Of a stretch of 64,000 nt of DNA, positions 13,272-52,201 are shown one piece after another. Position numbers and translations under genes: made by a program. Numbering within the stretch: the stretch's first letter is position 1; each line of letters starts with the position of its first letter. Source of the DNA: Antedon mediterranea (Eukaryota; Animalia; Echinodermata); the NCBI RefSeq assembly GCF_964355755.1, contig NC_092677.1, forward strand, positions 828,101-892,100. Direction: 5' to 3'. The notes beneath the pieces were generated by a model. The model searched no databases and was not told where the DNA came from. It saw only the letters and a list, made by a program, of their open reading frames with translations.

Positions 13272-13340
13272 ACCGAATTTTAATATTTATGCACAATTTC
13301 TTTTTAAACATTTTTTAAAAGTATCTTTAAAACATTCAGT

Positions 13341-27012: not shown

Positions 27013-28165
27013 CTAGATTTGAACTCGTCACTACGGACGAGTTAGGTTATCCGCAGCGCAAAAGCCACGTGCACGTCATACGTTAGAATATTGAGCGCAA
27101 AAAAATAAACGATTATGGCATTGAAAAATGTTAGTGCGCTCTCTATTTTGCGTCGCGTCTAAGTATATACGGTATAACACTATATACTGTATACGTACTA
27201 CATACAGTGCAGAATAGGTGAAAATAAGTGACCAAAGTTATTGACGCATTTGAACATGATGACGTCATCACAATTTTTAAAATGGTGGATCATGCGAAAG
27301 ATAATTGATTGATCTAGACAATATAAAAAAATTGAGTGAAATGGAATAAGGATAAGTAGAGATGCGCTCTATTAAATTGACGAGCTATGACGAAAGAGAA
27401 AAAAATCCTATATTTTATATTCGGGTGGCCATACGATGATGTCACAATGTCCGGTTAGCCATATCAATGCATGATTCGAGAAAAACAACTCATCTACTTC
27501 CAGAATATGTAATTTTAAAAAAGTTCACCACGTAGTTTAGAATTTATGACTGTTTAAAAAAAGGTCTAATTTTGACGATTTTTTGAAGTTTTTCATTAAA
27601 AATGCGCGCAAATTGTTCAATTCTACGTGCTCGTATGACGTGATATTAAGTCGAAATTGTATAAAAATTGGTAAAATTACTAGAAAAGGCTGAAAAAACA
27701 AAAATCAAGCAAAAAAAGGATGTTTTTGAGCTAAGTGCGCACGTGCGCGTAAAAAAATTGCGCACGCGTGGGAATTTTTGAAATGCTCAAAATGACCTTA
27801 AACGCGTAGAAAGTTGATTAGAAATTGATTTTACGCATTTTGAAATTTTAAACGCGCGTGCGCGCGTAACTTTCTGTGAAACATGCCATTTTCTCTCCAT
27901 AGAAAGTTAGAGCATGAAATAAATTAAACTTTTGCCAAGTTTCAATTAAAATGGTTTATTAGTTTTCAATCTAAATTAAATACGCGAAATTCATAAAATC
28001 GCGCGTAACTTACGCTGCGCAACTCGGACGGTACCGAAAACCTTATTACGACATATTCAGATAGAGATCAATCTTCTGATAAAGTTACAAAATGTTATGT
28101 TGAGAAGATTTAGAGATACACGCGCAACAAAATTCTGGGAAAGAAAGAAGAATAAGAAAGAAAAA
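27013..28165. mobile_element. Non-autonomous Helentron (HINE) A, right end missing
   Basis: Left end CTAGATTTG-AACTCGTC-actacg-GACGAGTT-a-GGTTATCCGC. Body is homologous to 25823-26940. Interrupted in the GAAA/A-rich tract by the next element. Confidence 0.88.
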
Positions 28166-29384
28166 CTAGATTTGAACTCGTCACTACGGACGAGTTAGGT
28201 TATCCGCAGCGCAAAAGCCACGTGCACGTCATACGTTAGAATATTGCGTGCAGAAAAACGATTATGCCACTGAAAAAAATGTTAGTGCGCCCTCTATTTT
28301 GTGTCACGTTTAAGTATATACGGTATACACTATTATACTGTATACGTACTACATACAGTGTAGAATAGGTGAAAATAAGTGACCAAAGTTATTGACGCTT
28401 TTGGACATGATGACGTCATAACAATTTTAAAAATGGTAAATCAATCGAAAGATAATTGATTGACCTAGACAATATATAAAAATGGGGGAAAATGGAATAC
28501 GGATAAGTGGAGATGCGCTCTATTAAATGTGATGAGCAATGACGAAAGAGACAAAAATCCTATCTTTGATATTCGTGTGGCCATACGATGACGTCACAAT
28601 GTCCGGTTAGCCAAATCGATGCATGATTCGATATCTACAACTCATCTACATTCAGAATATGTAATTTTAAAAAAGTTCACCACGTAGTTTAGAATCTATG
28701 ACTGTTTAAAAAAAGGCATAATTTTGACAAATTTTTGAACTTTTTCATAAAAAATGCGCGTAAATTGTTTAATTCTACGTGCTCGTATGACGTGATTTTA
28801 AGTTGAAATTGTTTGAAAGTTGGTAAATTTACTAAAAAAGACAGGAAAAACAAAAATCAAGCAAAAAAATGATGTTTTTGCGCTACGTGCGCACGCGCGC
28901 GTAAAAAATTGCGCACGCGTTGGAATTTTTGAAATGCTCAAAATGACATGAAACGCGTAGAAAGTTGATTAGAAATTGATTTTTCGCATTTTGAAATTTC
29001 AAACGCGCGTGCGCGCGTAACTTTTTGTGAAGCATGCAATTTTTAATCCATAGAAAGTTTGCGCATTATATGACTTAAATTTTCACCAAGTTTCAATACA
29101 AACAAACTTTTAGGTTTTATTCTATGATCAATCATTGAAATTCATAAAATCGCGCGTAACTTACGCTGCGCAACTCGGACACGACTGAAAACCTTATTAC
29201 GACATCTTCAGATAGAGGTCAATCTTCTGATAAAGTTATACAATGTTATGTTAAGAAGATTTAGAGATACACTAGCAACAAAATTTGTGGAAAGAAAGAA
29301 GAAAATAGAAAAAAAAAGAGAAAAAGAAAAATAAAAAAAAGATCCTGACAATAACAAGGGGTTATCCGCCAAGTGCGGATAACC
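28166..29384. mobile_element. Non-autonomous Helentron (HINE) B, complete
   Basis: Both termini present: left CTAG+hairpin+subTIR and right GATCCTGACAATAACAAGGGGTTATCCGCCAAGTGCGGATAACC. Flanked by AA (TT on the minus strand) with no TSD. Confidence 0.92.
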
Positions 29385-29386
29385 AA

Positions 29387-30531
29387 CTAGATTTGAACTC
29401 GTCACTACGGACGAGTTAGGTTATCCGCAGCGCAAAAGCCACGTGCACGTCATACGTTAGAATATTGCGTGCAGAAAAACGATTATGCCACTGAAAAAAA
29501 TGTTAGTGCGCCCTCTATTTTGTGTCACGTTTAAGTATATACGGTATACACTATTATACTGTATACGTACTACATACAGTGTAGAATAGGTGAAAATAAG
29601 TGACCAAAGTTATTGACGCTTTTGGACATGATGACGTCATAACAATTTTAAAAATGGTAAATCAATCGAAAGATAATTGATTGACCTAGACAATATATAA
29701 AAATGGGGGAAAATGGAATACGGATAAGTGGAGATGCGCTCTATTAAATGTGATGAGCAATGACGAAAGAGACAAAAATCCTATCTTTGATATTCGTGTG
29801 GCCATACGATGACGTCACAATGTCCGGTTAGCCAAATCGATGCATGATTCGATATCTACAACTCATCTACATTCAGAATATGTAATTTTAAAAAAGTTCA
29901 CCACGTAGTTTAGAATCTATGACTGTTTAAAAAAAGGCATAATTTTGACAAATTTTTGAACTTTTTCATAAAAAATGCGCGTAAATTGTTTAATTCTACG
30001 TGCTCGTATGACGTGATTTTAAGTTGAAATTGTTTGAAAGTTGGTAAATTTACTAAAAAAGACAGGAAAAACAAAAATCAAGCAAAAAAATGATGTTTTT
30101 GCGCTACGTGCGCACGCGCGCGTAAAAAATTGCGCACGCGTTGGAATTTTTGAAATGCTCAAAATGACATGAAACGCGTAGAAAGTTGATTAGAAATTGA
30201 TTTTTCGCATTTTGAAATTTCAAACGCGCGTGCGCGCGTAACTTTTTGTGAAGCATGCAATTTTTAATCCATAGAAAGTTTGCGCATTATATGACTTAAA
30301 TTTTCACCAAGTTTCAATACAAACAAACTTTTAGGTTTTATTCTATGATCAATCATTGAAATTCATAAAATCGCGCGTAACTTACGCTGCGCAACTCGGA
30401 CACGACTGAAAACCTTATTACGACATCTTCAGATAGAGGTCAATCTTCTGATAAAGTTATACAATGTTATGTTAAGAAGATTTAGAGATACACTAGCAAC
30501 AAAATTTGTGGAAAGAAAGAAGAAAATAGAA
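29387..30531. mobile_element. Non-autonomous Helentron (HINE) C, near-identical to B, right end displaced
   Basis: Matches 28166-29310 almost base for base and breaks at GAAAATAGAA|CTAG. Confidence 0.9.
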
Positions 30532-32456
30532 CTAGATTTGAACTCGTCACTTTGACGAGTTAGTTATCCGCACGACAAACGCCACGCGCACGTCATACGT
30601 TGGAATTTTGCACACGGAAAAAGATTATGGCTGTCATATTATTGATGTTGTGATTCTCTGTGTTTAGAGAAGGATGCTTTAGACCAGGTCCGCCTTATTA
30701 TTAGCCAATCAAAATCGTATAATTTTTAGAGGGAAAATGTTATCCTCCTTTGAAGCCTAAAATTTGCATATCCAGTATAAAAGTAGAATGTAATAGATAT
30801 TAGAGGAGAAGAGAGAATAAGATCAGAGTAGATAAACGGAAAGATGATAAAGAAAATAAGGCTTGACTGGTACAGTGGTAGAAAGATGTATTAATCGAGT
30901 TACAAGGAATAAAAGTTCTAGTTGAGTTAAATATACTTTTTGTATGAGTTATCATTCAGTGACAGTGTACGTCGCGTGGAGTTATATATATACGCCTGAG
31001 AAAGCTCGGAACCAACTAAAATAAATTCACTACAATGGCATTATGACCTGAATTTAAGAATATTATATGCTGTTAGTGCTGAATTCTGTCAATTTTGTGT
31101 CATATAGTATATACAGTGCAAACGGTATAATCTGTATACATGTTACATACAGTGTAGAATAGGTGAAATTACGGGACCCCCGTTTATTCCTATTTTTAAC
31201 ATGGCGACGGTATCAAAATGAAACACTAAGATAGCAATTTGAGAAGGAAATTATTTCAGTAACAACATATTAACGTGCAGAAGAAATTTGAATACGTGAA
31301 ATATTGATGCTTGCTCTTTTAAATGTAATGAATTATGACGCAAAAGATGAAAATACAAGTTTTTTTATTTAACTGGCCATATGATGACGTCACAACATCC
31401 GATTTGCAACATTTTCTCATGATTTCGTATCTACAATCCAATAGCTTCCAGAAAACGTTTTAATCGTGATTATCACATTTTATTTGTACGAGCTATAACA
31501 GATTAACATTTACTGTAAAGATGAAATTAATGGCACACGTAATTTAAATGTTTAGGCATGATGACGTCATACAAATTAAAATATTTTTAACTCATGCGAA
31601 GGATAGTTGATTGACCTAGACAATATCGAAATCGGGGTGAAAATGGAAAACGGATAAGTGGAGATGCGCTCTATTAAATGTGATGCGCTATGACAAAAGA
31701 GACAAAATCCCTATATTTTATATTCGAGTGGCCATACGATGACGTCACATAGTCCAGTTAGCCATATTAATGCATGATCCGATATCTGCAACTCATCAAC
31801 TTCCAGAATATGTAATAACAATAATTTTCACCGTTTAGTTGAGAAGCTACGACGGTTTAAAAAAATGCATCATTTTGACGAATTTTTGAACTTTTTCATA
31901 AAAAACGCGCGCAAATTATCCAATTCGACGTGCTCGTATGACGTAATTTTAAGCCGAAATTGTTTAAAAGTTGGTAAAAGTACTGAAAAAGGCTGGAAAA
32001 ACATAAATCATGCGGAAAAAGTATGTTATCAACGCTACGTGCGCACCGCGCGCGTAAAAAATTGCGCGCGCGTGGTAATTTTTGACATGCTCAAAATTAC
32101 ATGAAACGCGTAGAAAGTTGATTAGAAATTATTTTTTCGCATTTTAAAATTTTAAACGCACGTGCGCGCGTAACTTTGTGTAAAACATGTCATTTTTAGT
32201 GCACAAAAAGTTAGCGCAAGATATAAATTAAACTTTTGCTGAGTTTCAATTTAAATTGTTATATGGTTTTCGATCTATGTTAAATAGGCGAAATTCATAA
32301 AATCGCGCGTAAGTCACGTTGCGCATTTCTGACGTCATTCACAAAAGTGGCTGCACGACTTCACGTAAATGCGCACATGTTGACAAAGTTATAAAATGTT
32401 AGCTTTACACGTTTTAGAGATAAGCTCTGCACAAAAATGACAGAAAGAAAGAAGAA
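30532..32456. mobile_element. Longer divergent non-autonomous Helentron D (~1.9 kb), right end missing
   Basis: Variant left end CTAGATTTGAACTCGTC-acttt-GACGAGTT-AGTTATCCGC. 31560-32456 is homologous to the HINE body; the front part carries extra sequence. Confidence 0.8.
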
Positions 32457-33173
32457 CTAGATTTGAACTCGTCACTGCGGACGAGTTAGGTTATCCGCGA
32501 AAACGCAACGTCTAATATACACGTATAATACATAGGTCTGACGTGAAAACTAATTTTCGTTATTCGTTACATATTGGTAATTTTGGCGAGGATTGCATGC
32601 CATACTGTAGGTGAACTGAATTTCGAGAAAATTCAACAACTAAACGTGTTGTGTTGTGGTATGTCGTTGGTAAACTCCATGTTGGATTTTAAGAGTCGTT
32701 CTCTGATAATACTGTTACAAATACCATTTTATGTCGTCGAACTTCAACGATTAAATAAATAAATAACAAACTCAAGTTTGTTTAGAATTGATATACTATA
32801 AGAAATAGGTAAGAAATTATGTGGATTGTTTGATTTGTAGTTGTTTTGTAATTGCTACTTACTAACGTAACCCTAGCCTACTATAGATATAGAGTAGAGG
32901 CCTGCTGTGTTTGTATACACCGTACGGAAGAAGGATGTCTGTAGTTTCAGAGATGGCAAACGTCGTGACGTTTTTCAGCCCGATGGCTTTCGTAGCAGCA
33001 CGACATTCGTGTATGGCCATGTATGTGTATGTTAAATACGGTCCCGGTAAATATACGAACAAATATGTCTGGTACACAGTGTACCTAGGCCTAGCCTGTA
33101 CAAGAGCACTTGTTGTTTTTAGTAGGACTAAACGGCGCTAGTTCCCTTTTTGCACATGGGATGGCTTATATAT

Positions 33174-33947
33174 TACGCCGTGGCTAAAGATACGGTACCG
33201 TATTCTAACTTCTGTTTACTAAAGGTACGGTAAAATTGCATTACGTCATAACCAGCCAATGGGGTGCTGGTACGTGTGTGACGTCATCGTATAAGGACTT
33301 TGGATTTTTTTTTCATATCGCGAAAACAGTATCAACCGCATTTTTTGTTTATGGTTCATTTATCGCTATTATCGCCGTCGTGTGTGACAAAAACTAAATG
33401 TAGCCTACGTCTGTTATTATTATTAAAAAGCCAAAACATGTTGATTCTAATTCTAGAATACAGAAAACCGTTTCAAAAGAGGCCTAGGCCTACTTACTAC
33501 GTACTATAACCTCATTATATGAGTTTGTTTGTGTGTAGGGAAAGCGATGCCAGGCTGGGGCCAGCTGCATGTGTGCGCTGATGATTGACTCAGCCCTGGG
33601 GCTACTGTCTTAAAATCATAGTATTTGAGGGCCCCTTTATTGTCCGCATTTGCTTGTTGTTTATGGTCACCATATTGTAAACAAAGTTTAATAAAAAACA
33701 TAGACCTAAAGGCCATTTGGAATAAAAATAAAACCCTCATCAGCGCACACACATCCATGCAGCCTGGCGCCGCCGGCGACAGGAATTCTCTACATACAAA
33801 AACAGACGCGATATGAAAAAAAATCCTTATATGATGACGTCACACACGTACCAGAACCCCATTGGCTGATTATGACGTAATGCAATTTTACCGTACCTTT
33901 AGTAAACAGAAGTTAGAATACGGTACCGTATCTTTAGCCACAGCGTA
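33174..33947. mobile_element. MITE with ~140-bp TIRs inserted in the copy-2 leader
   Basis: TACGCCGTGGCTAAAGATACGGTACCG... is inverted at ...CGGTACCGTATCTTTAGCCACAGCGTA. It is absent at the equivalent sites of copy 3 (~55170) and copy 1 (~7650). TA-rich target, so the TSD is either TA or TATAT. Confidence 0.92.
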
Positions 33948-34289
33948 TATATTAACTCTAGCTTAATTTTTAGTTGTATAAATTCTTAAAGAGAAGAAAC
34001 AATGATTCGTGCTTCTTACAATAGCATGTTGTCTATAGGCTTACGCTAGTCCAGTAGTCCTAGTAGTAGTGTAGGTCAGCGCAGTTCCCTTTCGCACCTG
34101 TCATTGTTACAAATATTGTGGCTGTGATCACAATTTGTATTGATATTTATAATAATAATATATTTTTGTCTTGTAGCTGTTGGAAGAGATACACAATTGT
34201 CTCTACTTTAGTATCTCTAGAATATCGTAAGTAGTGTATATAAAATAAATAGTTTGTAGAGATGATTAATGGTTTCATGATAGGGAGTG

Positions 34290-36005
34290 AACTGTTGACA
34301 GTTATTTTGTAGGCATTTTCTATTATGAAACATTTACATAATTCAGATTTTATTGTTGGTGAATAAAATAAAATGAAATTAGCATTGAGACAACATGTAG
34401 GCCCCAATCAGCCGTTTCATACCCAAAGTCATTTTGAGGAAATTTCTTCATTTTTCAGTCATTGATTAAGAAGCATGTTGATTTGGAAAAAGTGTTAATG
34501 TTGTTTATTACCATTATTAATGTTTTTCCTTGTTTTTTTTAAGATTGTAGAAAATATAGTGTCAGCTACAGCTGTGTGAGTATTAGTAAATTATCTGTTA
34601 ACAAAGGGAAAACATATTTTCCTTACTTTGTGAACTGTTGCCTGTTATTTTGTAGGCATTTTCTATTATGAAACATTTACATAATTCAGATTTTATTTTT
34701 TGTGAATAAAATATTAAATGAAATTAGCATTGAGACAACATGTAGGCCCTAACCAGCCGTCTTATACCCAACGTCATTTTGAGGAAATTTCTTAATTTTT
34801 CAGACCTCGATTAAGAAGCATGTTGATTTGGAAAAAGTGTTAATGTTGTTTATTACCATTATTAATGTTTTTCCTTGTTTTTTTTAAGATTGTAGAAAAT
34901 ATAGTATCAGCTACAGCTGTGTGAGTATTAGTAGATTATCTGTTAACAAAGGAAAAACATATTTTCCTTACTTTGTGAACTGTTGCCTGTTATTTTGTAG
35001 GCATTTTCTATTATGAAACATTTACATAATTCAGATTTTATTTTTTGTGAATAAAATATTAAATAAAATTAGCATTGAGACAACATGTAGGCCCTAACCA
35101 GCCGTCTCATACCCAAAGTCTATTTGAGAAATTTCTTAATTTTTCAGACATTGATTAAGAAGCATGTTGATTTGGAAAAAGTGTTAATGTTGTTTATTGT
35201 CAATTATTAATGTTTTTCCTTGTTTTTTTTTTAGATTGATAGAACATATACAGTGTCAGCTACAGCTGTGAGTATTAGTAGATTATCTGTTAAACGGATA
35301 AAACTTATTTTCTTTACTTTGTGCCTGTTATTTTGTAGGCATTTTCTATTATGAAACATTTACATAATTCAGATTTTATGGTTTGTGAATAAAATATTAA
35401 ATGAAATTAGCATTGAGACAACATGTAGGCCCTAATCAGCTGTCTCATACCCAAAGTCATTTTGAGGAAATTTCTTAATTTTTCAGACATTGATTAAGAA
35501 ACTTGTTGATTTTAAAAAAGTGTTAATGTTGTTTATTGTCGTTAATAATGTTTTTCCTTGTTTTTTTTAGATTGTAGAAAATATACAGTGTCAGCTACAG
35601 CTGTGAGTATTAGTAGATTATCTGTTAAACGGAGAAAACATATTTTCCTTACTTTGTGAACTGTTGCCTGTTATTTTGTAGGCATTTTCTATTATGAAAC
35701 ATTTACATAATTCTATTCTAATTTTATTGTTTGTGAATAAGATATTAAATGAAATTAGTATTGAGAAAACATGTAGACCCCAATCAACCGGCCCATACCT
35801 AAAGTCATTTTGAGGAAATTTCTTAATTTTTAGATTAAGAAGCATGTTGATTTTGAAAAAGTGTTAATGTTGTTTATTGCCATTATTAATGATTTTCCTT
35901 TTATTTTTTAGATTGTAGTTGTACAGAAAATATACAGTGTCAGTTACAGCTGTGAGTATTAGAAAATTATCTGTAAAACGGAAAAAACAGATTTTCCTTA
36001 CTTGA
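34290..36005 (+). repeat. ~343-bp micro-exon array (copy 2), 5 cores
   Basis: Cores at about 34563, 34910, 35260, 35594 and 35943. Confidence 0.93.
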
Positions 36006-36140
36006 TGCCCTCCCTTAATTGATAAACATGTGTTGTCTGTAAATTTACAATACTGAGTGACCAAATATTTTTGTGTATAAAATTCTATTATATTAAAACA
36101 TTGAATAATTAAACCTATTTTCAGATTATATGTTTATACT

Positions 36141-36229
36141 AGGCCTTTATTTAATATAAAGGCCTAGTATGTATGTGTTGAAATGAAATAAAAAAAAAAA
36201 AAGAAAAAAAAAAGGCCTTTATTTAATAT
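36141..36229 (+). mobile_element. Tiny poly(A)-tailed insertion between 17-bp direct repeats
   Basis: AGGCCTTTATTTAATAT at 36141 and 36213 flanks ~55 nt ending in AATAAA and an A-tract. Confidence 0.5.
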
Positions 36230-40500: not shown

Positions 40501-43500
40501 ATAGATGATGTTACATCTGACAATGGTATATATATTTTGTACACCATGAATGTGCATTTTAATGTAGTGGAATCTGTCAATGTCAGTCAAAATAATTTTC
40601 AGGAAACAACAGGACAAGTTGATATGGATGTGACATCCCAAAAGAATTATACAACACAGAAACGAAAGCAAATGAGAAAAGAAACATGTCACACATTTGA
40701 AGACATAGAACCAAAACACAAAAAGAGTAAAACTGTTGAGGGACCTTGTTCTGGAGATGAAGTAAAAATGTTGAGAAGGAAAAGAAAAACATCTTATGAA
40801 AATAGAAAACAAAGAGAAAAGAATCGTCAGAGAATGAAAAGAATAAGAGAGAAAAAAGATAATTCAATAGACAAAAATGAAAATAGAAACAAATATCAAG
40901 GTGATCCTGCATACAGAGAAGAAAAGAAACGTAAAGTAAAGGAGGCACAACAAATAAGATATGCTGATGATGATTATAAATTCCAAAAAAGGAAGGAAAA
41001 CAGAGAAAGACAACACAAAAGGTATAGATGTGAACCTGAATATAATGTTAAGGTACGAAATAAAGCTAAACATAACTACAATATTGATTTGGATTACCGA
41101 ACAACCAAAAAAGAAACAGTGAAGAATAGATACAACAATGATACAATGTTTAGACATAAAACTATACAAAATAATAAACAAAGAAATCAGGAAAGGTATC
41201 ACAATGATCCACAGTTTCGAAAAAATTTGAAGCAAAATTTAGCACAGAAGTATTGTACTAATTCACAATTCAGAGAAAACATTACCCAAAAATTGACAGA
41301 GAAGTATCAAAGTAATTTTAAATTTAGACAAAACTGTAAAGAAAAATTTGTTAAAAAGTATCGGACTAATTTGAAATTTAGACAAAAATGGAAAGACAAA
41401 CTGGCAGAAAAGTATCGGAGTAATTTGAAATTTAGACAAAACTTTAAAGACAAATTGGTAGAAAAGTATCGGAGTAATTTAAAATTTAGAAGAAAATGCA
41501 AAGACAAATTGGCAGAAAAGTATCGGAGTAATTTGAAATTTAGACAAAACTGTAAGCAGAAATTGGCAGAGAAATATCGAGGGAATTCAAAATTTCGTCA
41601 AAGATGTAAGCAAAGATTTACAGAAAAGTATCATGGTGATGAAGGGTTCCGGAAAAAAATCATGAAGAAAAATATGAAAAATCGGGAAAAAATCAAAACA
41701 GAAAACACTAATTTTAATATTGTTTTAGAAAACTTCAAGAAAACAGTTTCTCGTGGTCCTGAATATGTTTGTTGCGTATGCTTTAAATTGTTATTCAAAG
41801 ATCAAGTTATGAAGTGCATCAGAGCTAAATACAAAAATCAGGCTTGTATAAATGAAAAGTATTTGCATAATTGCAATAATGAATGTAATAAACCTTGTCA
41901 ATTTGTTGAATCACCAAGATGTCGTTTATGGATTTGTTTCACATGCCACAGGAAAATGCTAAAAGGAAAAGTTCCTGCAGAAGCTAATTCAAACAATTTA
42001 CAACTATACGATATTCCTCCTGAGCTCAGGTGTTTAAATAATTTAGAGCAGCATTTGATTGGATTAAACATTCCTTTTATGAAATTAATTAATTTACCAA
42101 AAGGTGGACAGCATGGAATACATGGACCAGTCGTATGTGTACCATCAAATACTATTGAAACTGTAAAAATGTTGCCTAGACCAGAGGTTGATGATCAATT
42201 AATATCTGTAAAATTGAAGCGAAAGTTGTCTTACAAAGGTTATTACAAATATAAATTTGTTAAAACTGCCAATGTTATTCAAGCTCTTAGATATTTACAA
42301 GATCATAACAAGTGCTACTTTGATATAGCTATTAATGAAGAATGGCACAATTATTTATCTGAAGATAACATCGAAAGTGAAACTACTAATGAAAATGAAA
42401 ACAATGAAGAAGAAGAAAATGAAGAAGAAGTAGGTGTTACCTTCGATACAAGTCTTCAACCTGTTGACAGACGACAAAATGTGGTAGATGAATATTTTAA
42501 TGACATAATTTGTTGTGCACCGTGTGAAAATAATAGCCCTATTGCATTATTAAGTAATAAAAGCAATGAAGCAAAATCATTTCCAGTGTTATTTCCAACA
42601 GGCCAACCAACATTCCATGATACGAGAGATGTTAAAATAACACTCGGACGTTATTTTCATAATAGATTAATGCATATAGATAACAGGTTTGCACAAAATA
42701 CAGAATTCATTTTTTATGCTCAATCTTTATATGAACTTCAACAAATTTTATCAAGTATTTCCATTGCATTGCGAAAAGGGTCAAGTAAAAAGGATGACTT
42801 TAGTAAAGTTACTGTATCCGATTTAAAAAATGTTACCAAAATTGAGGAAATTTTAAAATCTGATAGGGGTTATAAATTTTTAAAACAAATTCGTGGGACT
42901 CCACCGTACTGGCAAGCTACACAGAAAGATGTAATAGCAATGGTTAGACAGATTGGAAAGCCAACATTCTTTCTTTCATTCTCAAGTGCAGACTTCCGTT
43001 GGAAAGAAATAATGACGACATTGTTAAGTCAGTCAGGAGACCAAAGAAACATTGAAGAATTGGAATGGGCAGATAAATGTAATTTGTTAAAATCAAATCC
43101 AGTGACTGTTGCCAGAATGTTTGACAAGCGCTTTCATACTTTTTTGAAAAATGTAATTTTGTCTGAAGCACAGCCGATTGGTAAAGTCATAGATTATTTT
43201 TACCGAATTGAATTTCAAATGAGAGGAAGTCCACATGTTCATATGTTAGTATGGGTTGAAAATGCTCCTATTTTTGGTACAGATAAAGATAACGAAGTTA
43301 TTAATTTTGTCGATAAATATATTTCTTGTGCTGTACCATGTGAAACTGTAGATCCTGAGCTGAATGAAATTGTTAAAAGTGTGCAAATTCACAGTAAAAG
43401 ACATTCTAAATCATGTAAAAAAAAGGGAACAAACTGCAGATTTAACTTCCCCAGACAACCTTCTGGAAATACATTTGTTATGAGACCTACAATTGTAGAT

Positions 43501-46500
43501 AAAGACAGTGATGATAATGATGACAATAAACAAGCAAGGGAGCTATTAACCTCAGTAAAAGATGCTGTGAGTAATGAAGAAACATATAAAAATTCAATAG
43601 AACTTTTCCAAAGTTTAGGTATTACACAGAGTGCATTTGAGAAAGCAAATAATTGTGTAGCTACTGAGGAAAAAATTGTTATAAAAAGAAACCCTCAAGA
43701 TGTGTGGGTAAATCAATATAATCCTTCCTTATTGAGAGCATGGAATGCTAATATGGATATTCAGTATATTACAAATGTATATGCATGTATTATTTACGTT
43801 ATAGGATATATGTCTAAATCTGAACGAGAAATGGGCTTACTGTTATCTCATGCAGCATCAGAAGTAAAAGAAGGCAATGAAGATGCTAGGCAAAGTTTGC
43901 GAAAACTTCGTAATGTTTATATGAATAATCGAGAAGTGTCTGCACAAGAAAGTATTTATCGTGTTTGTAGTTTAAGATTAAAAGAATGTTCAAGGAAAGT
44001 TGAATTTATCCCAGTAGGACCTAATCCTGTTAGAATGAGTTTACCACTAAGTGTAATTAAAAACAAAGCAGATGATGATGTAAGTGCATGGTTACCAAAT
44101 AAGATCGACAAATATAAAGCTCGACCTAATAGTTCTGATTTTAATAAAATGTGCCTTGCAAAATTTTGTTCAGAATATAGAATATTGAGTTCATCAGAAA
44201 TGAAAGGAAACAAACAAAAAAAGAATGTATTTCAGTTAAAAAAACAGTTGGGATTCATCCAAAAAAGAACACGAACTAGTAATGCTATAGTAAGATACCC
44301 TCGATTTCCAATGGATACAGCACCTGAGAAATATTTTTTGAGTATACTTCAGTTATTTCTACCATTTCGAAAAGATGAACAGTTAAAACCTCCAACTTTT
44401 GAAACGTACGAACAATTTCATGAGAAAGGATGTGTGAAATTATGTGGCTGTCAATTAGAAACGGTAAAGTCAATAGTTAATGGAAACATGAAACAATATG
44501 AAAAAAGTGCTGATGATGTTGAAGAAGCACAGGAATTTTTATTAAAATTTGGACCACAAGAAGATGCATGGAGCCTATTATGTCCAGAAAGCGAAAAAGA
44601 AAGGTTAGACAACCCAAAGCCAAATGTAGAGGTTGATGATGAAGAAGATGAATTTTTCATTCCAGATTTTGGAATTCAAAAAAATCATACATCTAAAGTA
44701 GAATCTAATTCATCTAATATTCCAAGACCAGAATTGAACAAAATGATTCGATCTTTAAATGAAAAACAACAACATATATTTTATAAGACAAGACAATGGT
44801 GTTTAGACAAAGTTAATGGTAAAAAACCTGAAGCATTTTACAATTTCATAACTGGAGGCGCTGGTACAGGAAAAAGTCATTTGGTAAATTGTATTTATAA
44901 TGAAGCGACACGTATTCTTGGAAAGATTATGGAAAATCCCGATGATTTGTCAATATTGAAATTAGCTCCTACAGGAATCGCAGCATATAATATTAAAGGC
45001 CAAACAATTCATAGCGCTTTGTCTATCCCGATTAATATTTCACTTCCGTATCAACCACTTGGAGAAGAAAAAATAAGTGCACTTCGTAATAAATTGGGCC
45101 AGTTGCAAATTGTTATTATAGATGAAATATCAATGGTAAATCAAAGGTTACTTTGGTATATCCACGGACGATTAAGGCAAATAAAACAAGTACGCAACGA
45201 TAGTCCATTTGGTAACATTTCAGTAATTGCTGTTGGTGATTTTTATCAGTTACCCCCGGTGATGGGCAGTTCGTTATATAAAGACACATTGGAAAGCTCA
45301 CTGTGGATAGATAACTTTAAGCAAGTACAGTTAGATCAAATCATGAGGCAAAAAGAAGATAAACAATTTGCTTTATTGTTAAACAAATTGCGTACAAAAG
45401 AAAAACATGATTGTTTGTCTGATAACGATTTATTAGTTCTAAAATCACGTGAAACAGGTGAAGAATGTGAAGATGCTGTTCATATTTACCCACGCAACAA
45501 ACAAGTTGATGAATGGAATAAAAAAATGTTGCACAAAACCTGTACAGACATTGTATGCATTAAAGCAGAAGATAGTGTAGTAAATAGCAAGAAACAGAGC
45601 AAAAATTGTGACAAACCTCGGAATTCACGTCAAACTAGTTTACTAAATTATTTGTGGATTGCAATTAATGCCAGAGTGATGTTGATTAAAAATGTAGATG
45701 TTAAAAAAGGCTTAACGAATGGATGTATGGGACATGTTGATGAAATAGTCAAACCTGATCATAACACCGAACCAGTATCTATTAAAGTAAAATTTGACAA
45801 TAATGACATTGGTATTCAGGCAATTGAAATGTTTAAAGAATCTATGGGGAAAAAATACAGTCGAAAACAATTTCCTCTCAAATTAGCATATGCATGCACA
45901 GTTCATAAAGTGCAAGGAATGACAATGGATAAAGCAGTGGTTTGCCTTAAAGATACTTTTATGCATGGTCAAGCATATGTAGGCCTCAGTCGTGTTACTT
46001 CAATAACTGGACTTACTATTGAAAATTTTAAACCTAGTCTGATTTATTGTGATCCAAACATAAAGAAGTGCTTAAATAATATGGATTCATACGTACAATG
46101 TGATAAACAAGGTCATGATTCGGCTTGTAGATTTTCAATAATGTTACATAACATTCAAGGGCTTAAACAACATTTTTTTGATCTTCAGTGTAATGATTTG
46201 TTTATGAATTCTAATATCATATGTCTAACTGAAACATGGTTAAACAAGGATGATGATGTTTTTGACGTACGCATTGAGCCGTATAAATTGTATCACCAAG
46301 CAAGGTATGATTCGTATTCTAATACAAATGATCTCAGTTCCAAAATAAAACATCAGGCTCATGGTGGCGTTGCAGTGTATGCCAAGAACACGTCTTCAAG
46401 CAGATTAAACATATGTAATAATGATATAGAAGCAGTTTCATTTTTAATAACAAGTCCGATTTCTGTTGCCGTGTCAGTAATTTATCGACCCCCAAGTTAT

Positions 46501-46785
46501 GATATTAATCAATTCTGTCAAAATTTGAGAAAACATTTGGAAGAGTTACATAAAATGAGCACAAAGTGTATTGTAATGGGTGATTTTAATGAAAATCTTT
46601 TCAAACAATCTTCCAGAGTGAATAATTTAATGGCAGAGAATGAGTACAAACAACATGTTACATGTTCTACAACTGAAAACAATACATTGATTGATCATGT
46701 TTATAGCAAAGGTCTTGATTCAGTACAGGCTGAAGTAATTCCAATTTATTATAGCTATCATGAAACCATTCAAATTAAATTTTAA
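37567..46785 (+). CDS. Helentron transposase polyprotein (3072 aa): TM helix, PHD, herpes-tegument/C76-like protease, OTU, 18-aa repeats, Cys-rich region, HUH Rep, PIF1 helicase, EEP/AP endonuclease
   Basis: PHD C4HC3 (37933-38079); GKQCVANSL...FDPH (39232-39633); OTU GDGNCFYRAIS (~40195); Rep motifs FLSFSSAD, YRIEFQMRGSPHVH (43201) and YVIGYMSK (~43796); Walker A GGAGTGKS (~44854), IIDEISMV, VGDFYQLPPV, TVHKVQG, QAYVGLSR; endonuclease HNIQGL, CLTETW, YRPP, GDFN, IDHVY. Confidence 0.96.
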   Translation: MDMEFIAVVGIFLLIIFTMIIYLCKNVNKEVTSKKQIFVNTTGNVNNGVMDKTAEFKIVVNDILDLLDECCSTENVKDDRNDDTGNVNCEFMKDTTEFKGIIDDIINILSYGTEVTSEFNDTCDFCNIEVKVDDNCITCDRCSQYFHVKCVRDVFEDKLCNSRVIWICSMCGNSNFVDNMLGEIGIPCHFNRYTILEPDESVTADFTELTKNKEKRCNNAKLKCQQRGSEDLLGSDWMRVRSKKRNDNRKKRCKNRGNKKRRKRVINGISIEPGVKYIGKGVKDFYERRNNNKMEWNTNTCREYNKENGKTNVLGNSQTIIDDSGRPMCDVLKNTKVTHGIQQQSGGGSKRLRNNKGRFVKTKKIDNKKAQGNVDLNLKNDCDTMERFGKDIKNMGNNDNSETKTDEDFKMKCTVENDNTATDDAKAQNNSKMNDRSRIIDSNVTDHKNQCASCEFEENEVLIIDDGCKKEVAEKIRSHTKPKCDQHTIDVDIEVLTTINFSEELIIDDVPKQQNTRKRQKIQSINELQVYNSNENITVAQGNFNQGNYRFGFASGKQCVANSLVAILYSTKRNGNEFYTKDLDTILTLGNELYRYIQKDSTMHEDLLMISELPKELDILDNTFVISPKESVFGIIDGNLEFMAEYGALSLNQALEQELHQHDAFFMNFNRSTFSIIKRVNGFLIFDPHARDRFGCVSEHGKSILLYSTSWQGVYDYCIRLARSMNCNLHDTEFELTGVNIENKSMILCSASVLDDNCEQSNLGNADVDEPSTSYQYKCSTRLPEKNIDSNVKGQKHNKEGHVSSSNGWQSDSDIEIVNVQYGERPDKNFKFIPISEAQKKNMCNEVGIHCEYTDMNCGINRASQIGHPLQITNITGDGNCFYRAISYIISGTEDNHFLLRRAITNHLLETGDLFINTFSHEYRSVKEYVFEKRVMDNGTWASNTEISAMANLLNTDIYSFNDQLLTWQLFSAKKPGRIDDVTSDNGIYILYTMNVHFNVVESVNVSQNNFQETTGQVDMDVTSQKNYTTQKRKQMRKETCHTFEDIEPKHKKSKTVEGPCSGDEVKMLRRKRKTSYENRKQREKNRQRMKRIREKKDNSIDKNENRNKYQGDPAYREEKKRKVKEAQQIRYADDDYKFQKRKENRERQHKRYRCEPEYNVKVRNKAKHNYNIDLDYRTTKKETVKNRYNNDTMFRHKTIQNNKQRNQERYHNDPQFRKNLKQNLAQKYCTNSQFRENITQKLTEKYQSNFKFRQNCKEKFVKKYRTNLKFRQKWKDKLAEKYRSNLKFRQNFKDKLVEKYRSNLKFRRKCKDKLAEKYRSNLKFRQNCKQKLAEKYRGNSKFRQRCKQRFTEKYHGDEGFRKKIMKKNMKNREKIKTENTNFNIVLENFKKTVSRGPEYVCCVCFKLLFKDQVMKCIRAKYKNQACINEKYLHNCNNECNKPCQFVESPRCRLWICFTCHRKMLKGKVPAEANSNNLQLYDIPPELRCLNNLEQHLIGLNIPFMKLINLPKGGQHGIHGPVVCVPSNTIETVKMLPRPEVDDQLISVKLKRKLSYKGYYKYKFVKTANVIQALRYLQDHNKCYFDIAINEEWHNYLSEDNIESETTNENENNEEEENEEEVGVTFDTSLQPVDRRQNVVDEYFNDIICCAPCENNSPIALLSNKSNEAKSFPVLFPTGQPTFHDTRDVKITLGRYFHNRLMHIDNRFAQNTEFIFYAQSLYELQQILSSISIALRKGSSKKDDFSKVTVSDLKNVTKIEEILKSDRGYKFLKQIRGTPPYWQATQKDVIAMVRQIGKPTFFLSFSSADFRWKEIMTTLLSQSGDQRNIEELEWADKCNLLKSNPVTVARMFDKRFHTFLKNVILSEAQPIGKVIDYFYRIEFQMRGSPHVHMLVWVENAPIFGTDKDNEVINFVDKYISCAVPCETVDPELNEIVKSVQIHSKRHSKSCKKKGTNCRFNFPRQPSGNTFVMRPTIVDKDSDDNDDNKQARELLTSVKDAVSNEETYKNSIELFQSLGITQSAFEKANNCVATEEKIVIKRNPQDVWVNQYNPSLLRAWNANMDIQYITNVYACIIYVIGYMSKSEREMGLLLSHAASEVKEGNEDARQSLRKLRNVYMNNREVSAQESIYRVCSLRLKECSRKVEFIPVGPNPVRMSLPLSVIKNKADDDVSAWLPNKIDKYKARPNSSDFNKMCLAKFCSEYRILSSSEMKGNKQKKNVFQLKKQLGFIQKRTRTSNAIVRYPRFPMDTAPEKYFLSILQLFLPFRKDEQLKPPTFETYEQFHEKGCVKLCGCQLETVKSIVNGNMKQYEKSADDVEEAQEFLLKFGPQEDAWSLLCPESEKERLDNPKPNVEVDDEEDEFFIPDFGIQKNHTSKVESNSSNIPRPELNKMIRSLNEKQQHIFYKTRQWCLDKVNGKKPEAFYNFITGGAGTGKSHLVNCIYNEATRILGKIMENPDDLSILKLAPTGIAAYNIKGQTIHSALSIPINISLPYQPLGEEKISALRNKLGQLQIVIIDEISMVNQRLLWYIHGRLRQIKQVRNDSPFGNISVIAVGDFYQLPPVMGSSLYKDTLESSLWIDNFKQVQLDQIMRQKEDKQFALLLNKLRTKEKHDCLSDNDLLVLKSRETGEECEDAVHIYPRNKQVDEWNKKMLHKTCTDIVCIKAEDSVVNSKKQSKNCDKPRNSRQTSLLNYLWIAINARVMLIKNVDVKKGLTNGCMGHVDEIVKPDHNTEPVSIKVKFDNNDIGIQAIEMFKESMGKKYSRKQFPLKLAYACTVHKVQGMTMDKAVVCLKDTFMHGQAYVGLSRVTSITGLTIENFKPSLIYCDPNIKKCLNNMDSYVQCDKQGHDSACRFSIMLHNIQGLKQHFFDLQCNDLFMNSNIICLTETWLNKDDDVFDVRIEPYKLYHQARYDSYSNTNDLSSKIKHQAHGGVAVYAKNTSSSRLNICNNDIEAVSFLITSPISVAVSVIYRPPSYDINQFCQNLRKHLEELHKMSTKCIVMGDFNENLFKQSSRVNNLMAENEYKQHVTCSTTENNTLIDHVYSKGLDSVQAEVIPIYYSYHETIQIKF
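41248..41652 (+). repeat. In-frame 54-bp coding repeat (copy 2), ~8 units
   Basis: The translation shows four fewer KYRSNLKFR units than copy 1. Confidence 0.93.
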
Positions 46786-46909
46786 TTGCATCAATGGTTT
46801 TTAAGTATTTGAATTATATTTTTGTAAAAACTTTTTAGGAATTGAAAATAGAACTGGATACAAATTAAAAAAAACAATTTGATAAAAACAAGCTGAAAAT
46901 CATTATGAC

Positions 46910-47650
46910 CCTCTATGCACAAGAGGCAGCGAGTAATCTGTAACTTCAACCCATGTCATTCTCCTGTATAGGAAAAACAATATCTGGTGTCTAAACACAT
47001 TTCAATCTTGTTTTTATGTGAGTTAAATTATTATAGATATTGTTCTGAATTTGAATATGCAATGTTGCAATCTCTGTACATAATAATCGTTCAATATCTA
47101 CCAGTATTCAAGTAATGTTGAAAATAAAAAGTTACATTTCACAGAAGAAGAAAATACGTTTTGTTTTATACGATTACCAATACTTCATTAGGTCTATACA
47201 TAATTTCAGTTGTATAATTGTTTTTTCTATTCTTTTTTTTTCTATCCAGGTCCACATGAAATTACTAATACAGTAATTTACTCATGTGGAAGAATAATCA
47301 ATTTATTATCTATGCAAGAGAGGCAGCGAATAATCTGTAACTTCAACCCATGTCATTCTTCTGTATAGGAGAAACAATATCTGGTGAGTAAACACATTTT
47401 AATCTTGTTTTTATGTGAGTTATATTATTATAGATATTGTTCTGAATTTGAATATGCAATGTTGCAATCTCTGCACATAATAATCTTTCAATATTTACCG
47501 GTATTCAAGTAATGTTAAAAATAAAAAGTTACATTTTACAGAAGAAGAAAATACGTTTTTTTTATACGATTACCAATACTTCATTAGGTATATACATAAT
47601 TTCAGTTGCATAGTTGTTTTTTATTTTATTTTTTCTATCTATCCAGGTTC
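46910..47650. repeat. ~400-bp tandem duplication downstream of the ORF
   Basis: GAGGCAGCGA.TAATCTGTAACTTCAACCCATGTC at ~46923 and ~47320. Only one full unit plus a partial one in copy 1 (23670-24115). Confidence 0.8.
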
Positions 47651-50535
47651 ACATTAATTTTCTCATTTGCAAGAATAATCAATTTATTTTCTTTTGGCTT
47701 TTAGGTGTTCAATAGAATGGTTTCATCTCTTCAATTATAGGATCCGGATATTTAGGCAGTCATTAATGCAGCTCTTTCATAGCAATTGTCTAAACGCGGC
47801 AAATGATTAAATTATTAATTGTATTAATGATTGTTAAAAAATAAGAATCTTCTATAAATAGATTAATAATATGCGTTTAATGAATCCACAACTAACAAAT
47901 TAACATGTATATAATGTAGGAAGTAAAATTACTGATCACCAAATAAACTACTGTATAGTATAAACAGCCTATTATAATTTTTAAAATTGTGTACAATTTG
48001 CAATAACCAATGAAAGCTTATATAAATACATACATTTCATACTTATTATTTGTTTGAAATAAAAGATTATTTTTAACAGTTATGGTGTGATAATATTAGC
48101 TTTATCAGAAATATTTTATCTATTGGAGCAAGCTTTAACACTGGCAACTGAGATAAATGTCAGTAATCCATAAGATCAAATCACAGAGCAGAGGAGACAA
48201 GAAATTGTTATTATTATTATTCACACATGTAACTGGTTGTACTTTAGTACATTATGGTGTTTAGAACTGAAATTACGGGAGAAAACATTGTTTGATGTCA
48301 TCAAAATGAAACATAAAAGTATGTACATTTTCGGAAAATAATTCATTTCAATGAGCATAATTAAATAATATAATATAAATAATAATAATGAAAATTTGGC
48401 ACGTACAACTGAGATGCGTAATATGTTGAAGTGATGAACTATATGCCAAAAAACAAATAAAAATCCTACCTTTCCAATTACTGGCCATAGCATGACATCA
48501 TAGCATGACCTCGCAGCATCCAATAGGAACATTTTTATGACAGCATATTACAGAATACATTGTATATGTTATATAATTTAATTATCTAAATAATTACATT
48601 AATACAAATTTAAAGAATTTTGGGAACGTTAACCTGAGATGCGCTCTATTTTAAACACGATTAATTTTTACGAAAGAGATGAAAATATGACTTTTTAAAT
48701 TCAACTGGCCATATAATGACGTCATGAAATTAGATAGACAAAATTTGTATATGACTTCATATCTACAATTCAACAATTTCCATAAGTTTTAATCACATGG
48801 GTCACTTTGTTAACTCATGTGTGAAGGAAAATTGATTTATCAAGAACATTAAAACGCATTAGCGTGATGCCCTCTATTAAATGGGATTAACTAAATACAA
48901 AATAGAAAAAAAAATCTATTTTTAAAATTCGAGTGGCCATATGATGACGTCAGAACATCCTTTAGGTAAAATTTGTACATTAATTGATATCTACAACTCA
49001 TTCGACGGGGTAACCTGCCATCTTGAGGAGCTAGAAATGAATCAAAATAGCTATATTTTTTGCATAAATTCGTATTATATTACCCTTTCTTTAGCACACG
49101 ATTTCTAAAGTTTAACATGCACGTGCATCGTTAATTTGCAATAAAAATTCATGAAAGTGAAAGAAATCGTGAACGTAGGCCTATGACCAACAAAAATCAA
49201 TTGCAAAACACATTTTTCTACGCTTTGTACAAGCTGTGTGCACAAGTGCGTGCGCAAAACACAAACAAATTAGACAATTTTGAAATGCTCAAAGTGACCT
49301 GAAATGTACGCAAATTAAATAGAAATTAATTTGGCGCATTTTTAAAATTCACTCGTACTCAAAAAAAAATAAATAAATAAATATAATAAACAAATTTGAT
49401 TTAGGTTTTCCGCAGCGCAAACGCCACGTGCACGTCATACGTTAGAATATTGCACTCAGAAAAAACGATTATGCCATTGAAAAAATGTTAGTGCGCTCTC
49501 TATTTTGCGTCACGTCTAAGTATATACAGTATACACTATACTGTATACGTACTACATACAGTGAAGGATAGGTGAAAATAAGTGACCACAGTTTTTAACG
49601 CTTTTGAACATGATGACGTCATCACAACTTTAAAAATGGTGAATCATGCGAAAGATAATTGATTGACCTAGACAAAATAAAAAAATTGAGGGAAATGGAA
49701 TACGGATAAGTGGAGATGCGCTCTATTAAATGTGATGAGCTATGCGAAAGAAACAAAAATCCTATATTTTATATTCGAGTGGCCATACAATGACGTCACA
49801 ATGTCCGGTTAGCGATATTCATGGATGATTTCATATCTACAACTCATCTACTTCCAGAATCGGTAATTTAAAAAAAGTTCACCACGTAGTTTATAATCTA
49901 TGACTTTTTTAAAAAAGGCATAATTTTCACGAATTTTTGAACTTTTTCATCAATAACGCGCGCAAATTTTTCAATTCTACGTGCTCGTATGACGTGATTT
50001 TAAGTCGAAATTGTTTGAAAGTTAGTAAATCTACTAAAAAATGACAGGAAAAACAAAAATCAAGCCAAAAAATAGTGTTTTTGCGCTACGTACGCACGCG
50101 CGCGTAAAAAAATTGCGCACGTGTGGGAATTTTTGAAATGCTCAAAATGACATGAAACGCGTAGAAAGTTGATTAGAAATTGATTTTTCGCATTTTGAAA
50201 TTCTAAACGCGCGTGCGCGCGTAACTTTCTGCGCAACCTGCCATTTTTAATCCATAGAAAGTTTGCGATTAATATGACTTAAATTTTCACCAAGTTTCAA
50301 TACAAAATTACTTTTGGTTTTTAATCTATGATCAATCATTGAAATTCATAAAATCGCGCGTAACTTACGCTGCGCAACTCGGACTGGACCCAAAACCTTA
50401 TTACGACATCTTCTGATAGAGGTCAATCTTCTGATAAAGTTATACAATGTTATGTTAAGAAGATTTTGAGATACACGCGCAACAAAATTCTGGGAAAGAA
50501 AGAAGAAAAAAGAAAAAAAAGAAAAAAAAAAAAAA

Positions 50536-50720
50536 GATCCTGACAATAACAAGGGGTTATCCGCCAAAGTGCGGATAACCAAAAAAAAAGAGAAAAAGAA
50601 AAATAAAAAAAAGATCCTGACAATAACAAGGGGTTATCCGCCAAGTGCGGATAACCAAAAAAAAAAAAAAAAAAAAAGATCGTGACAATAACAAGGGGTT
50701 ATCCGCCAAGTGCGGATAAC

Positions 50721-50756
<36 letters not shown>

Positions 50757-50923
50757 TCCTGACAATAACAAGAGGTTATCCGCCAAGTGCGGATAACCAA
50801 TTATCCGCCAAGTGCGGATAACCAAAAAGATCCTGACAGTAACAAGGGGTTATCCGCCAAGTGCGGATAACCAAAAAAAGATCCTGACAATAACAAGAGG
50901 TTATCCGCCAAGTGCGGATAACC
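50536..50923. repeat. Stack of seven Helentron right-end hairpins separated by A-tracts
   Basis: GGTTATCCGC-caagt-GCGGATAACC hairpins end at 50580, 50656, 50721, 50798, 50823 (partial), 50872 and 50923. Confidence 0.95.
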
Positions 50924-50929
50924 AAAAAA

Positions 50930-52124
50930 CTAGATTTGAACTCGTCACTACGTACGAGTTAGGTTATCCGCAGCGCAAAGGCCACGTGCACGTCATACGT
51001 TAGAATATTGCGCGCAGAAAAACGATTATGCCATTTAAAAAATGTTAGTGCGCTCTCAATTTTGCGTCACGTCTGAGTATATACGGTATACACTATAACT
51101 GTATACGTACTACATACAGTGCAGAATAGGTGAAAATAAGTGACCAAAGTTATTAACGCTTTTGAACATGATGACGTCATAACAATTTTAAAAATGGTGA
51201 ATCAATCGAAAGATAATTGATTGACCTAGGCAATATATAAAAATGGGGGAAAATGGAATACGGATAAGTGGAGATGCGCTCTATTAAATGTGACGAGCTA
51301 TGACGAAAGAGACAAAAATCCTATGTTTTATATTCGAGTGGCCAAATGATGACGTCACAATGTCCGGTTAGCCATATTGATGCATGATTCGATATCTGCA
51401 ACTCATCTACTACCAGAATATGTAATTATAAAAAAGTTCACCACGTAGTTTAGAATCTATGACAGTTTAAAAAAAGGCATAATTTTGTCAAATTTTTGAA
51501 CTTTTTCATCAAAAATGCGCGCAAATTGTTTCATTCTACGTGCTCGTATGACGTGATTTTAAGTCTAAATTGATTTAAAATTGATAAATTTACTAGAAAA
51601 GGCTGAAAAAACAAAAATCAAGCAAAAAAATGATGTTTTTGCTCTACGTGTGCACGCGCGCGTAAAAAATTTGCGCACGGGTGGGAATTTTTGAAATGCT
51701 CAAAATGACATGAAACGCGTAGAAAGTTGATTAGAAATTGATTTTTCGCATTTTAAAATTTCAAACGCGCGTGCGCGCGTAACTTTTTGTGAAACATGCC
51801 ATTTTTAATCCATAGAAAATTTGCGCATGATATCACTTAAATTTTCACAAAGTTTCAATACAAAACAACTTTTAGTTTTTATTCTGTGATCAATCATTGA
51901 AATTCATAAAATCGCGCGTAACTTACGCTGCGCAACTCCAAAATCGTCCAAAAGCTTGGCTGCACATCTACAGCGATAGGTCAACCTTATGACAAAGTTA
52001 TACAATCTTATGTTGGCCACAAGATAGAGATATGCTGCGAACAAAAATCGTGGAAAGAAAGAAGAACATAGAAAAAAAAAGATCCTGACAATAACAAGAG
52101 GTTATCCGCCAAGTGCGGATAACC
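50930..52124. mobile_element. Non-autonomous Helentron (HINE) E, complete, followed by an extra orphan right end (52148-52191)
   Basis: Left end CTAGATTTGAACTCGTC at 50930. Right hairpins end at 52124 and 52191. Confidence 0.9.
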
Positions 52125-52201
52125 AAAAAAAAAAAAAAAAAAAAAAAGATCCTGACAATAACAAGGGGTTATCCGCCAAGTGCGGATAACCAAAAAAAAA
52201 A

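What the first reader, a model, noticed from the sequence alone, without database searches (positions are those of the whole stretch)
27013..52191. Russian-doll Helentron nest: elements insert into the A-rich tract just inside each other's right end
Seen: all nine left ends follow either the GAAA/A tract ~50-80 bp inside a previous element's right end, or a right-end hairpin directly. A, C, D, F and G lack right ends, while surplus right ends pile up at 50581-50923 and 52148-52191. HINE C breaks at GAAAATAGAA| (30531). Its twin B continues AAAAAAAGAGAAAAAGAAAAATAAAAAAAAGATCC, and exactly that spacer reappears at 50581, 20 kb downstream. Established: Helentrons insert at TT without a TSD. Inference: this family strongly targets its own subterminal tract, so each insertion supplies a new landing site and builds a self-growing nested cluster.
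Basis: partly seen in the sequence, partly recalled or inferred. Interest (0 to 1): 0.82.

Follow-up and report, generated by a model that had tools for sequence, protein, structure and literature searches.

The report
Rolling-circle transposons piled into own heads
Three large enzyme-coding and seven small rolling-circle transposons of one family sit joined end to end, all facing one way, likely because new copies land in the T-rich run that each copy carries behind its own front end; the habit is known in outline from fungi and maize, and this pile is a remodelled rather than a clean Russian doll.

Summary
The coordinates and sequences are right. All 9 'left ends' follow a family A-tract (5) or a family hairpin (4). 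There are 10 full and 1 partial 'right ends', and C's two halves, 20 kb apart, rejoin to twin B plus 2 A. The family is a Helentron (HLE2), probably of a feather star: three autonomous copies (one with an open 3073-codon Rep-helicase-endonuclease frame) and seven HINEs. By published convention the 'right end' is the 5' head, and the ORF runs antisense. The nest does not balance: the head with C's spacer sits where D's should, four spare heads have no body in the window, and copy 1 lacks its 3' end. Likely mechanism: poly-T targeting hits the element's own tract, then read-through mobilisation, a concatemer and deletion remodel the pile. Homing beyond poly-T preference is not shown. No genome was held; public contigs only hint that such junctions recur elsewhere. 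Self-insertion giving multiple 5' ends was proposed for Fusarium and maize Helitrons, and this scan noted the same pattern on other DNA (2 loci in this genome, 6 in others). What this locus adds: an intact transposase inside the nest and a built-in empty-site control.

The parts
7225..27010 (-). Autonomous copy 1 (X1). 5' head at 26967-27010; no 3' hairpin/CTAG end; leftmost 0.9 kb strongly diverged from copies 2 and 3; ORF split by a frameshift (14072-20215 and 20152-23517 on +). Left limit approximate.
   Evidence: 7225-7839 is 49% and 7840-8151 is 82% identical to copy 3, against 95% and 98% for copy 2
25824..25833 (-). Vestigial internal subTIR (GGTTTTCCGC on +) with no hairpin or CTAG, at the start of the HINE-like last 1.2 kb of copy 1
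27013..28165 (-). HINE A, headless body broken in its tract
28166..29384 (-). HINE B, complete (1219 bp); serves as the empty site for the insertion in C
29387..30531 (-). HINE C, body; 100% identical to B; broken at ATAGAA|
30532..32456 (-). HINE D, divergent subfamily (79% to the others; 1925 bp; internal duplication), headless; no head at the position that brackets require
32457..50580 (-). Autonomous copy 2 (X2), both termini present, 18.1 kb
37564..46785 (+). Open frame of 3073 codons (stop to stop): Herpes_teg_N, OTU, DUF6570, Helitron_like_N (Rep), PIF1 helicase, Exo_endo_phos endonuclease; antisense to the structural orientation
49404..49413 (-). Vestigial internal subTIR in copy 2, as in copy 1
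50581..50656 (-). Spacer plus head of C (B-type spacer; 2 extra A on rejoining)
50657..50923 (-). Four more full heads (50678-50721, 50755-50798, 50829-50872, 50880-50923) and a partial one (50801-50823), separated by A21, A33, A2, A5 and A7; at most one can belong to A
50930..52124 (-). HINE E, complete (1195 bp)
52148..52191 (-). Spare head after A23; no body in the window
52202..53346 (-). HINE F, headless body
53347..54497 (-). HINE G, headless body
54498..64000 (-). Autonomous copy 3 (X3); 3' end present; runs off the window; frame 59762-64000 open on +

Best explanation
This is a same-orientation pile of ten copies of one Helentron family that likely grew because the family inserts into runs of T and every copy brings a fresh T-rich run just behind, and just outside, its own 5' hairpin, and that was likely remodelled afterwards so that heads and bodies no longer pair one to one. 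Shown: the termini, the junctions, the split of C around D plus copy 2, and the imbalance. Inferred: (1) the transposase, possibly through its endonuclease, nicks T-runs, and the tract behind the head is a HINE's best such site; (2) each insertion leaves a headless body on one side and a spare head on the other and adds a few T, so the target renews itself; (3) copying that starts at one head and runs past an inner 3' end (copy 2 into D), or starts at an outer head, moves composites, or else recombination between near-identical heads removes one; (4) B and C are a rolling-circle dimer or an immediate re-insertion; (5) recombination with an older relative or a deletion removed copy 1's 3' end and the outer bodies.
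For: Termini fit Helitron2/Helentron on the - strand: a 10-bp ATIR forming a 5' hairpin (z -5.2) and the same ATIR just before an 8-bp 3' stem (definition). 9 of 9 junctions are in terminal zones and in one orientation; none of the 54 runs of 8 or more A/T outside those zones holds a family end. In B and E every AA|A6 site on either strand is in the tract (3 of 3, 2 of 2). Rejoined C equals B plus 2 A, in line with the variable terminal T reported for Helentrons. Spacer runs in the stacks (A21, A33, A23) are longer than any run in the 4 intact tails (longest A17). Copies other than B/C are 86-92% alike (D 79%), so they are separate insertions. Copy 1's left 0.9 kb is diverged while its ORF region is 96% identical to copy 2. 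Both autonomous tails hold a hairpin-less internal subTIR followed by a full HINE body, a likely scar of earlier nesting with read-through. In public run X4, 63 contigs have a loose end just before the 3' terminus and their consensus ends in the head's GCGGATAACC (agreement 0.5), and 14 contig entries show A-number differences within the tract|3'-end junction. The same model was proposed for Fusarium and maize.
Against: Only one body-head pair (C) is demonstrated, and steps 3-5 are each inferred from what is missing. Plain poly-T preference still under-predicts the bias (P 1e-3 to 0.015). Contigs of X4 also show 3' ends joined to interior positions of a copy (2 of the 12 rows shown table 5c; 2 of 2 rows), so the tract is not the only site used. 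No genome-wide count was possible. The contig evidence is no copy count, and no listed piece bridges the junction with 31 letters on both sides. The endonuclease ends in SYH where L1/APE enzymes have SDH (reference motif recalled), so its nicking role is untested.
Confidence: 0.65

Rival explanations
1. True homing: the transposase binds a resident copy's 5' hairpin (its origin) and integrates in the nearest T within about 85 bp, so the bias is set by the hairpin and not only by T-run length.
For: Flank junctions with only 2 A (27011-27012, 29385-29386) and tract breaks all cluster 0-84 bp from the hairpin; 54 other long A/T runs, many inside the autonomous copies, are unused; there is no opposite-orientation copy. 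Head-adjacent 3' ends are the plurality among 63 loose-ended contigs.
Against: The residual P is modest once long T-runs are required and non-independent junctions are dropped (0.015 for 5 of 5); the window was selected for the pattern; interior insertions exist; head-to-tail joints also arise as concatemers.
Confidence: 0.2
2. No nesting: head-to-tail rolling-circle concatemers, reshuffled by unequal crossing-over and by slippage deletions between A-runs that removed or multiplied heads.
For: B-C is an identical head-to-tail pair; the 25-bp duplication at 50776-50825 shows local slippage; HINEs look mosaic in their tails. Tandem Helitron insertions are reported.
Against: Neighbours other than B/C differ by 8-21%; the B-type spacer, absent from 3 of 4 intact tails, sits 20 kb from C directly behind copy 2; heads in the stack differ from one another (GATCGT, CAGT and GAGG variants), so they are not simple local duplicates.
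Confidence: 0.1
3. Assembly artefact: repeats joined through A-runs, B/C duplicated by the assembler.
For: B and C are 100% identical; junctions lie in homopolymers; the best public run holds only 0.53 of the sampled words; no listed contig spans either stretch laid.
Against: Each junction has its own sequence context and each other copy is distinct; the same kinds of junction appear in contigs assembled from public runs.
Confidence: 0.05

Closest known systems
Helentron / HINE / DINE-1 (Thomas et al. 2014, PMC4067079; passages and section 16 read)
   Same: Rep-helicase-endonuclease ORF with OTU, subTIRs, 3' stem-loop, T-rich target, variable terminal T, non-autonomous partners sharing the ends; a minority have the ORF in minus orientation, as here.
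   Different: The passages read describe no insertion into the element's own tract, no stacked heads and no nest with autonomous copies.
FoHeli (Helitron2-type) self-insertion in Fusarium oxysporum (Chellapan et al. 2016, PMC5148889; passages and section 16 read)
   Same: Multiple short 5' termini with one 3' terminus, explained by self-insertion followed by copying from the outer 5' end to the first 3' end; reversed ORF in FoHeli4/5.
   Different: One nested example and duplicated ends, no endonuclease, other target site. Here headless bodies and spare heads are both preserved, with 10 copies in at least 57 kb.
Maize Helitrons with multiple termini (Dong et al. 2011, PMC3288121; passages)
   Same: Nesting as the source of multiple termini; inner 3' ends lose CTAG (99 of 100), like the hairpin-less internal subTIR in the autonomous tails here; Helitrons insert near or in other Helitrons.
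   Different: Canonical HLE1 with an A|T target and no self-carried poly-T tract.
HLE2 and HelenXT233 of Xenopus (Li et al. 2024, PMC11417382; passages); Helitron2 termini (Bao & Jurka 2013, PMC3627910; passages)
   Same: [quoted passage not shown]
   Different: Two ends only; no nest described in the passages read.

Membership tests
Helentron (HLE2) | Rep (HUH/Y2) followed by a PIF1-type helicase in one ORF | tested here: met
   Helitron_like_N E 1e-36 and PIF1 E 8e-29; HVH, YVIGYMSK and GGAGTGKS motifs present (motif roles recalled)
Helentron (HLE2) | C-terminal AP-type endonuclease domain | tested here: met
   Exo_endo_phos E 1e-8, above cut-off; ends in SYH like 39 of 121 proteins examined, SDH in 13, no motif found in 47; activity untested
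Helentron (HLE2) | DUF6570 (HLE2 marker) | tested here: met
   E 1e-19; marker
Helentron (HLE2) | Asymmetric TIRs: 5' ATIR at the tip in a hairpin, 3' ATIR about 20-30 bp from the end before a stem-loop | tested here: met
   On the - strand; the 3' ATIR is 32 bp from the end (definition). The 3' stem alone is weak against shuffles (z -1.4 to -3.0)
Helentron (HLE2) | Insertion between T and T | tested here: met
   9 of 9 3' ends and 10 of 10 full heads are flanked by at least 2 A on +
Helentron (HLE2) | No target-site duplication | tested here: inconclusive
   One empty site (B against C): net +2 A, which may be terminal T, a TT duplication, a remnant of D's lost head or homopolymer error
Helentron (HLE2) | Placement in the HLE2 clade by RepHel phylogeny | not tested
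   No tree built; nearest proteins share the same domain set
HINE | Non-coding, shares both termini with an autonomous Helentron | tested here: met
   No ORF of 150 aa or more in A-G; HINE E's first 42 bp are 95% and its positions 27-1195 are 87% identical to copy 2
Balanced Russian-doll nest | Heads and bodies pair in strict bracket order | tested here: not met
   the head with the B/C spacer falls to D; three spare heads and copy 1's head stay open at the window start
Self-targeting (homing) element | Genome-wide excess of insertions at own copies over matched T-runs | not testable with these tools
   No genome held; contigs give no counts

The most novel reading that the evidence does not exclude
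An endonuclease-bearing Helentron homes on the 5' hairpin of resident copies, using its own origin as a safe harbour. Each landing lengthens the T-run and renews the target, and read-through of inner 3' ends swaps heads between HINEs and autonomous copies, so that the present autonomous elements themselves run on a head captured from a nested HINE. The intact 3073-codon transposase inside the nest makes this directly testable.
Probability: 0.2. Interest if true: 0.7.

Novelty: new member of a known kind. Interest (0 to 1): 0.4.

Why it matters
How Helentrons choose targets and what their endonuclease does are open questions (PMC4067079 section 16 calls for biochemistry). This locus has an intact transposase, its HINE partners, a twin pair that gives a before-and-after view of one insertion, and scars of read-through, so it is a good substrate for such a test. 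If self-carried T-tracts steer insertions, HLE2 families would build their own clusters, spare host genes and exchange termini. In practice such piles are easily mis-annotated as satellites or tandem arrays. The idea itself is not new.

Tried and rejected
Whole genome: not held, so no census of ends and no view beyond 64000. Left-end motif in metagenome contigs: 1 hit, L001, which lacks the hairpin and subTIR and is taken as a chance match; viral contigs: 0 hits. Laying contigs on B (4 runs) showed an abundant, diverse family but did not assay the A-rich head, and summed contig depth is no copy number, so none is claimed. X4-X6 are one sample and may be the window's source, so they are not independent support. 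The PDB sequence search with the endonuclease found nothing. A search for a 3' end of copy 1 found no subTIR within 1 mismatch and no hairpin upstream of 25824; one 2-mismatch match at 3655 is isolated. Strict bracket pairing was rejected. Carrying the whole stack in with copy 2 alone was considered: it needs the B/C spacer to be a coincidence and two heads to be lost, so it is less parsimonious than pairing C in place. The look-up of earlier findings by sequence and near this place gave nothing. Literature searches showed no paper on this family or on a measured bias for the element's own T-tract; most subscription papers and all supplements were not seen, and they may bear on novelty.
Full report
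Observation. The two end motifs occur 9 and 11 times, all on the + strand. Ten right ends are full 44-45 bp cassettes; one is a partial copy inside a 25-bp duplication. Five left ends follow a broken purine tract and four follow a hairpin plus 2-10 A. B and C are identical over 1147 bp; the other HINEs and the autonomous tails are 86-92% alike and D is 79%.

What the elements are. Three long copies (about 7225-27010, 32457-50580, 54498 to the window end) carry a large + strand frame. In copy 2 it is open for 3073 codons, with Herpes_teg_N, OTU, DUF6570, Helitron_like_N, PIF1 and Exo_endo_phos domains. Copy 1 has a frameshift; copy 3 runs off the window. The three are 95-96% identical in the aligned ORF region. 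The nearest proteins, up to 97-98% identical over part of the Rep region, are labelled Antedon mediterranea, then other echinoderms at 57-65%, so the host is probably a feather star. Read on the - strand, the 'right end' is a 10-bp ATIR that folds into a hairpin at the very tip (z -5.2), and the 'left end' is the same ATIR, an 8-bp stem and CTAG. This is the Helitron2 layout of PMC3627910 (passages). So the 'right ends' are 5' heads, the tract is a T-tract behind the head, and the ORF is antisense, as in a minority of known elements.

Is it nested? One pair is demonstrated: C is split around D plus copy 2, and B is its empty site. The B-type spacer is absent from the other 3 intact tails. But a strict bracket parse gives that head to D and leaves three spare heads and copy 1's head open at the window start. 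With C paired by sequence, D has no head and 4 of the 5 remaining spare heads have no body. Two of them are of the GAGG type seen in E, while the only E-type headless bodies (F, G) lie on the wrong side. Copy 1 has no 3' end. Its leftmost 0.6 kb is 49% and the next 0.3 kb 82% identical to copy 3, against 95% and 98% for copy 2, while a stretch further in is 98%. I infer a recombination or deletion at that edge, which could have removed the outer bodies. D's missing head fits either a composite copied from copy 2's head through its 3' end to D's 3' end, or a deletion between two near-identical heads; the window cannot tell these apart.

Is it targeting? Terminal zones hold 5.6% of the window's AA|AA sites, 21% of AA|A4 sites and 43% of AA|A6 sites (both strands). 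Eight of eight junctions (C left out as B's twin) has P 1e-10, 3e-6 and 1e-3; five of five has P 6e-7, 4e-4 and 0.015. None of 54 long A/T runs outside the zones is used. But in B and E the tract is the only place with an AA|A6 site (3 of 3, 2 of 2), so for a HINE host poly-T preference alone predicts tract insertion. The window was also chosen for the pattern. The local bias is real; homing beyond poly-T is not shown.

Outside evidence. No genome is held. Seven public runs share words with the region; the best, X4, holds 0.53. On a 140-bp stretch around the F|G junction, 1412 contigs of X4 were laid. Of these, 63 have a loose end just before the 3' terminus, with a consensus ending in the head's GCGGATAACC (agreement 0.5, median 16 letters). 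Fourteen contig entries differ in A number inside the junction, more than the window's 5 tract junctions could supply. This suggests that head-adjacent and tract junctions recur in the genome, but contigs are not copies, most rows were not shown, and no listed piece bridges with 31 letters a side. Against exclusivity, some contigs join a 3' end to interior positions.

A deeper scar. The last 1.2 kb of both complete autonomous tails is a HINE from its position 27 onward (87-88%), starting at a one-mismatch subTIR without hairpin or CTAG, and preceded by older HINE-like pieces at 61-78%. The likely reading is that an ancestral autonomous copy took its present head from a HINE nested in it and lost the inner terminator, as maize inner 3' ends lose CTAG. 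The reverse, HINEs arising by deletion to this vestige, is also possible and still needs the vestige explained.

Mechanism. Established: Helentrons prefer poly-T, leave no clear duplication and vary in terminal T; the endonuclease is hypothesised to nick the target (PMC4067079, passages and section 16). Inferred here: the element's own tract and the T beside its head are renewed targets in a fixed orientation; each event splits a copy into body and head and may add T (stack spacers A21-A33 against at most A17 in intact tails); read-through, a dimer (B-C) and deletion then break the balance. Confidence 0.65, with homing 0.2, concatemers plus slippage 0.1 and artefact 0.05.

Comparison and novelty. 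Self-insertion as the source of multiple 5' termini is stated for Fusarium Helitron2-type elements (PMC5148889 section 16), nesting as the source of multiple termini for maize (PMC3288121 passages), two left ends for a Xenopus HLE2 (PMC11417382 passages), and clustering near other Helitrons in a review passage (PMC12477314). Passages of PMC7492417, PMC13085455 and PMC11934779 gave no nest of this kind. This scan's unchecked notes report the same pattern at 2 other loci of this genome and in 6 findings from other genomes, described as non-coding elements in the lines shown; they are not independent support. Seven searches showed no measurement of bias for the element's own tract; supplements and most subscription papers were not seen. 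Verdict: a real and well-preserved example in a new family, worth having for its intact transposase and internal control, but a new member of a known kind. Interest 0.4.

Noticed in passing
window 33168-33952: A 0.8-kb element with 155-bp inverted ends (92%) sits in copy 2 at a TATA site and is absent from copy 3; MITE-like, TA-flanked.
   Followed up: partly
window 8152-12600, 34287-36003, 55596-58109: Each autonomous copy carries an array of a 343-347 bp repeat, of different length per copy, upstream of the ORF; also 90-bp repeats (13353-13580, 58843-59206) and a 397-bp duplication in copy 2 (46912-47654).
   Followed up: no
window 17703-18338, 41290-41632, 63384-63996: In-frame 54-bp (18-residue) basic repeat in the transposase, about 12, 6 and at least 11 units in the three copies.
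   Followed up: no
window 46099-46785: The endonuclease ends in SYH rather than SDH; SYH is the commonest form among the relatives fetched (39 of 121).
   Followed up: partly
window 27013-28165, 50930-54497: HINEs look mosaic: A has a D-like patch near 27900-27990, and E, F, G share a tail type unlike that of A, B and the autonomous copies.
   Followed up: no
window 6899-7182: Eroded HINE-like fragments (69-79%) directly upstream of copy 1's diverged end.
   Followed up: partly
window 1-940: A short element with GC-rich subterminal repeats and inverted ends (TGTCAC...GTGACA) at the window start.
   Followed up: no
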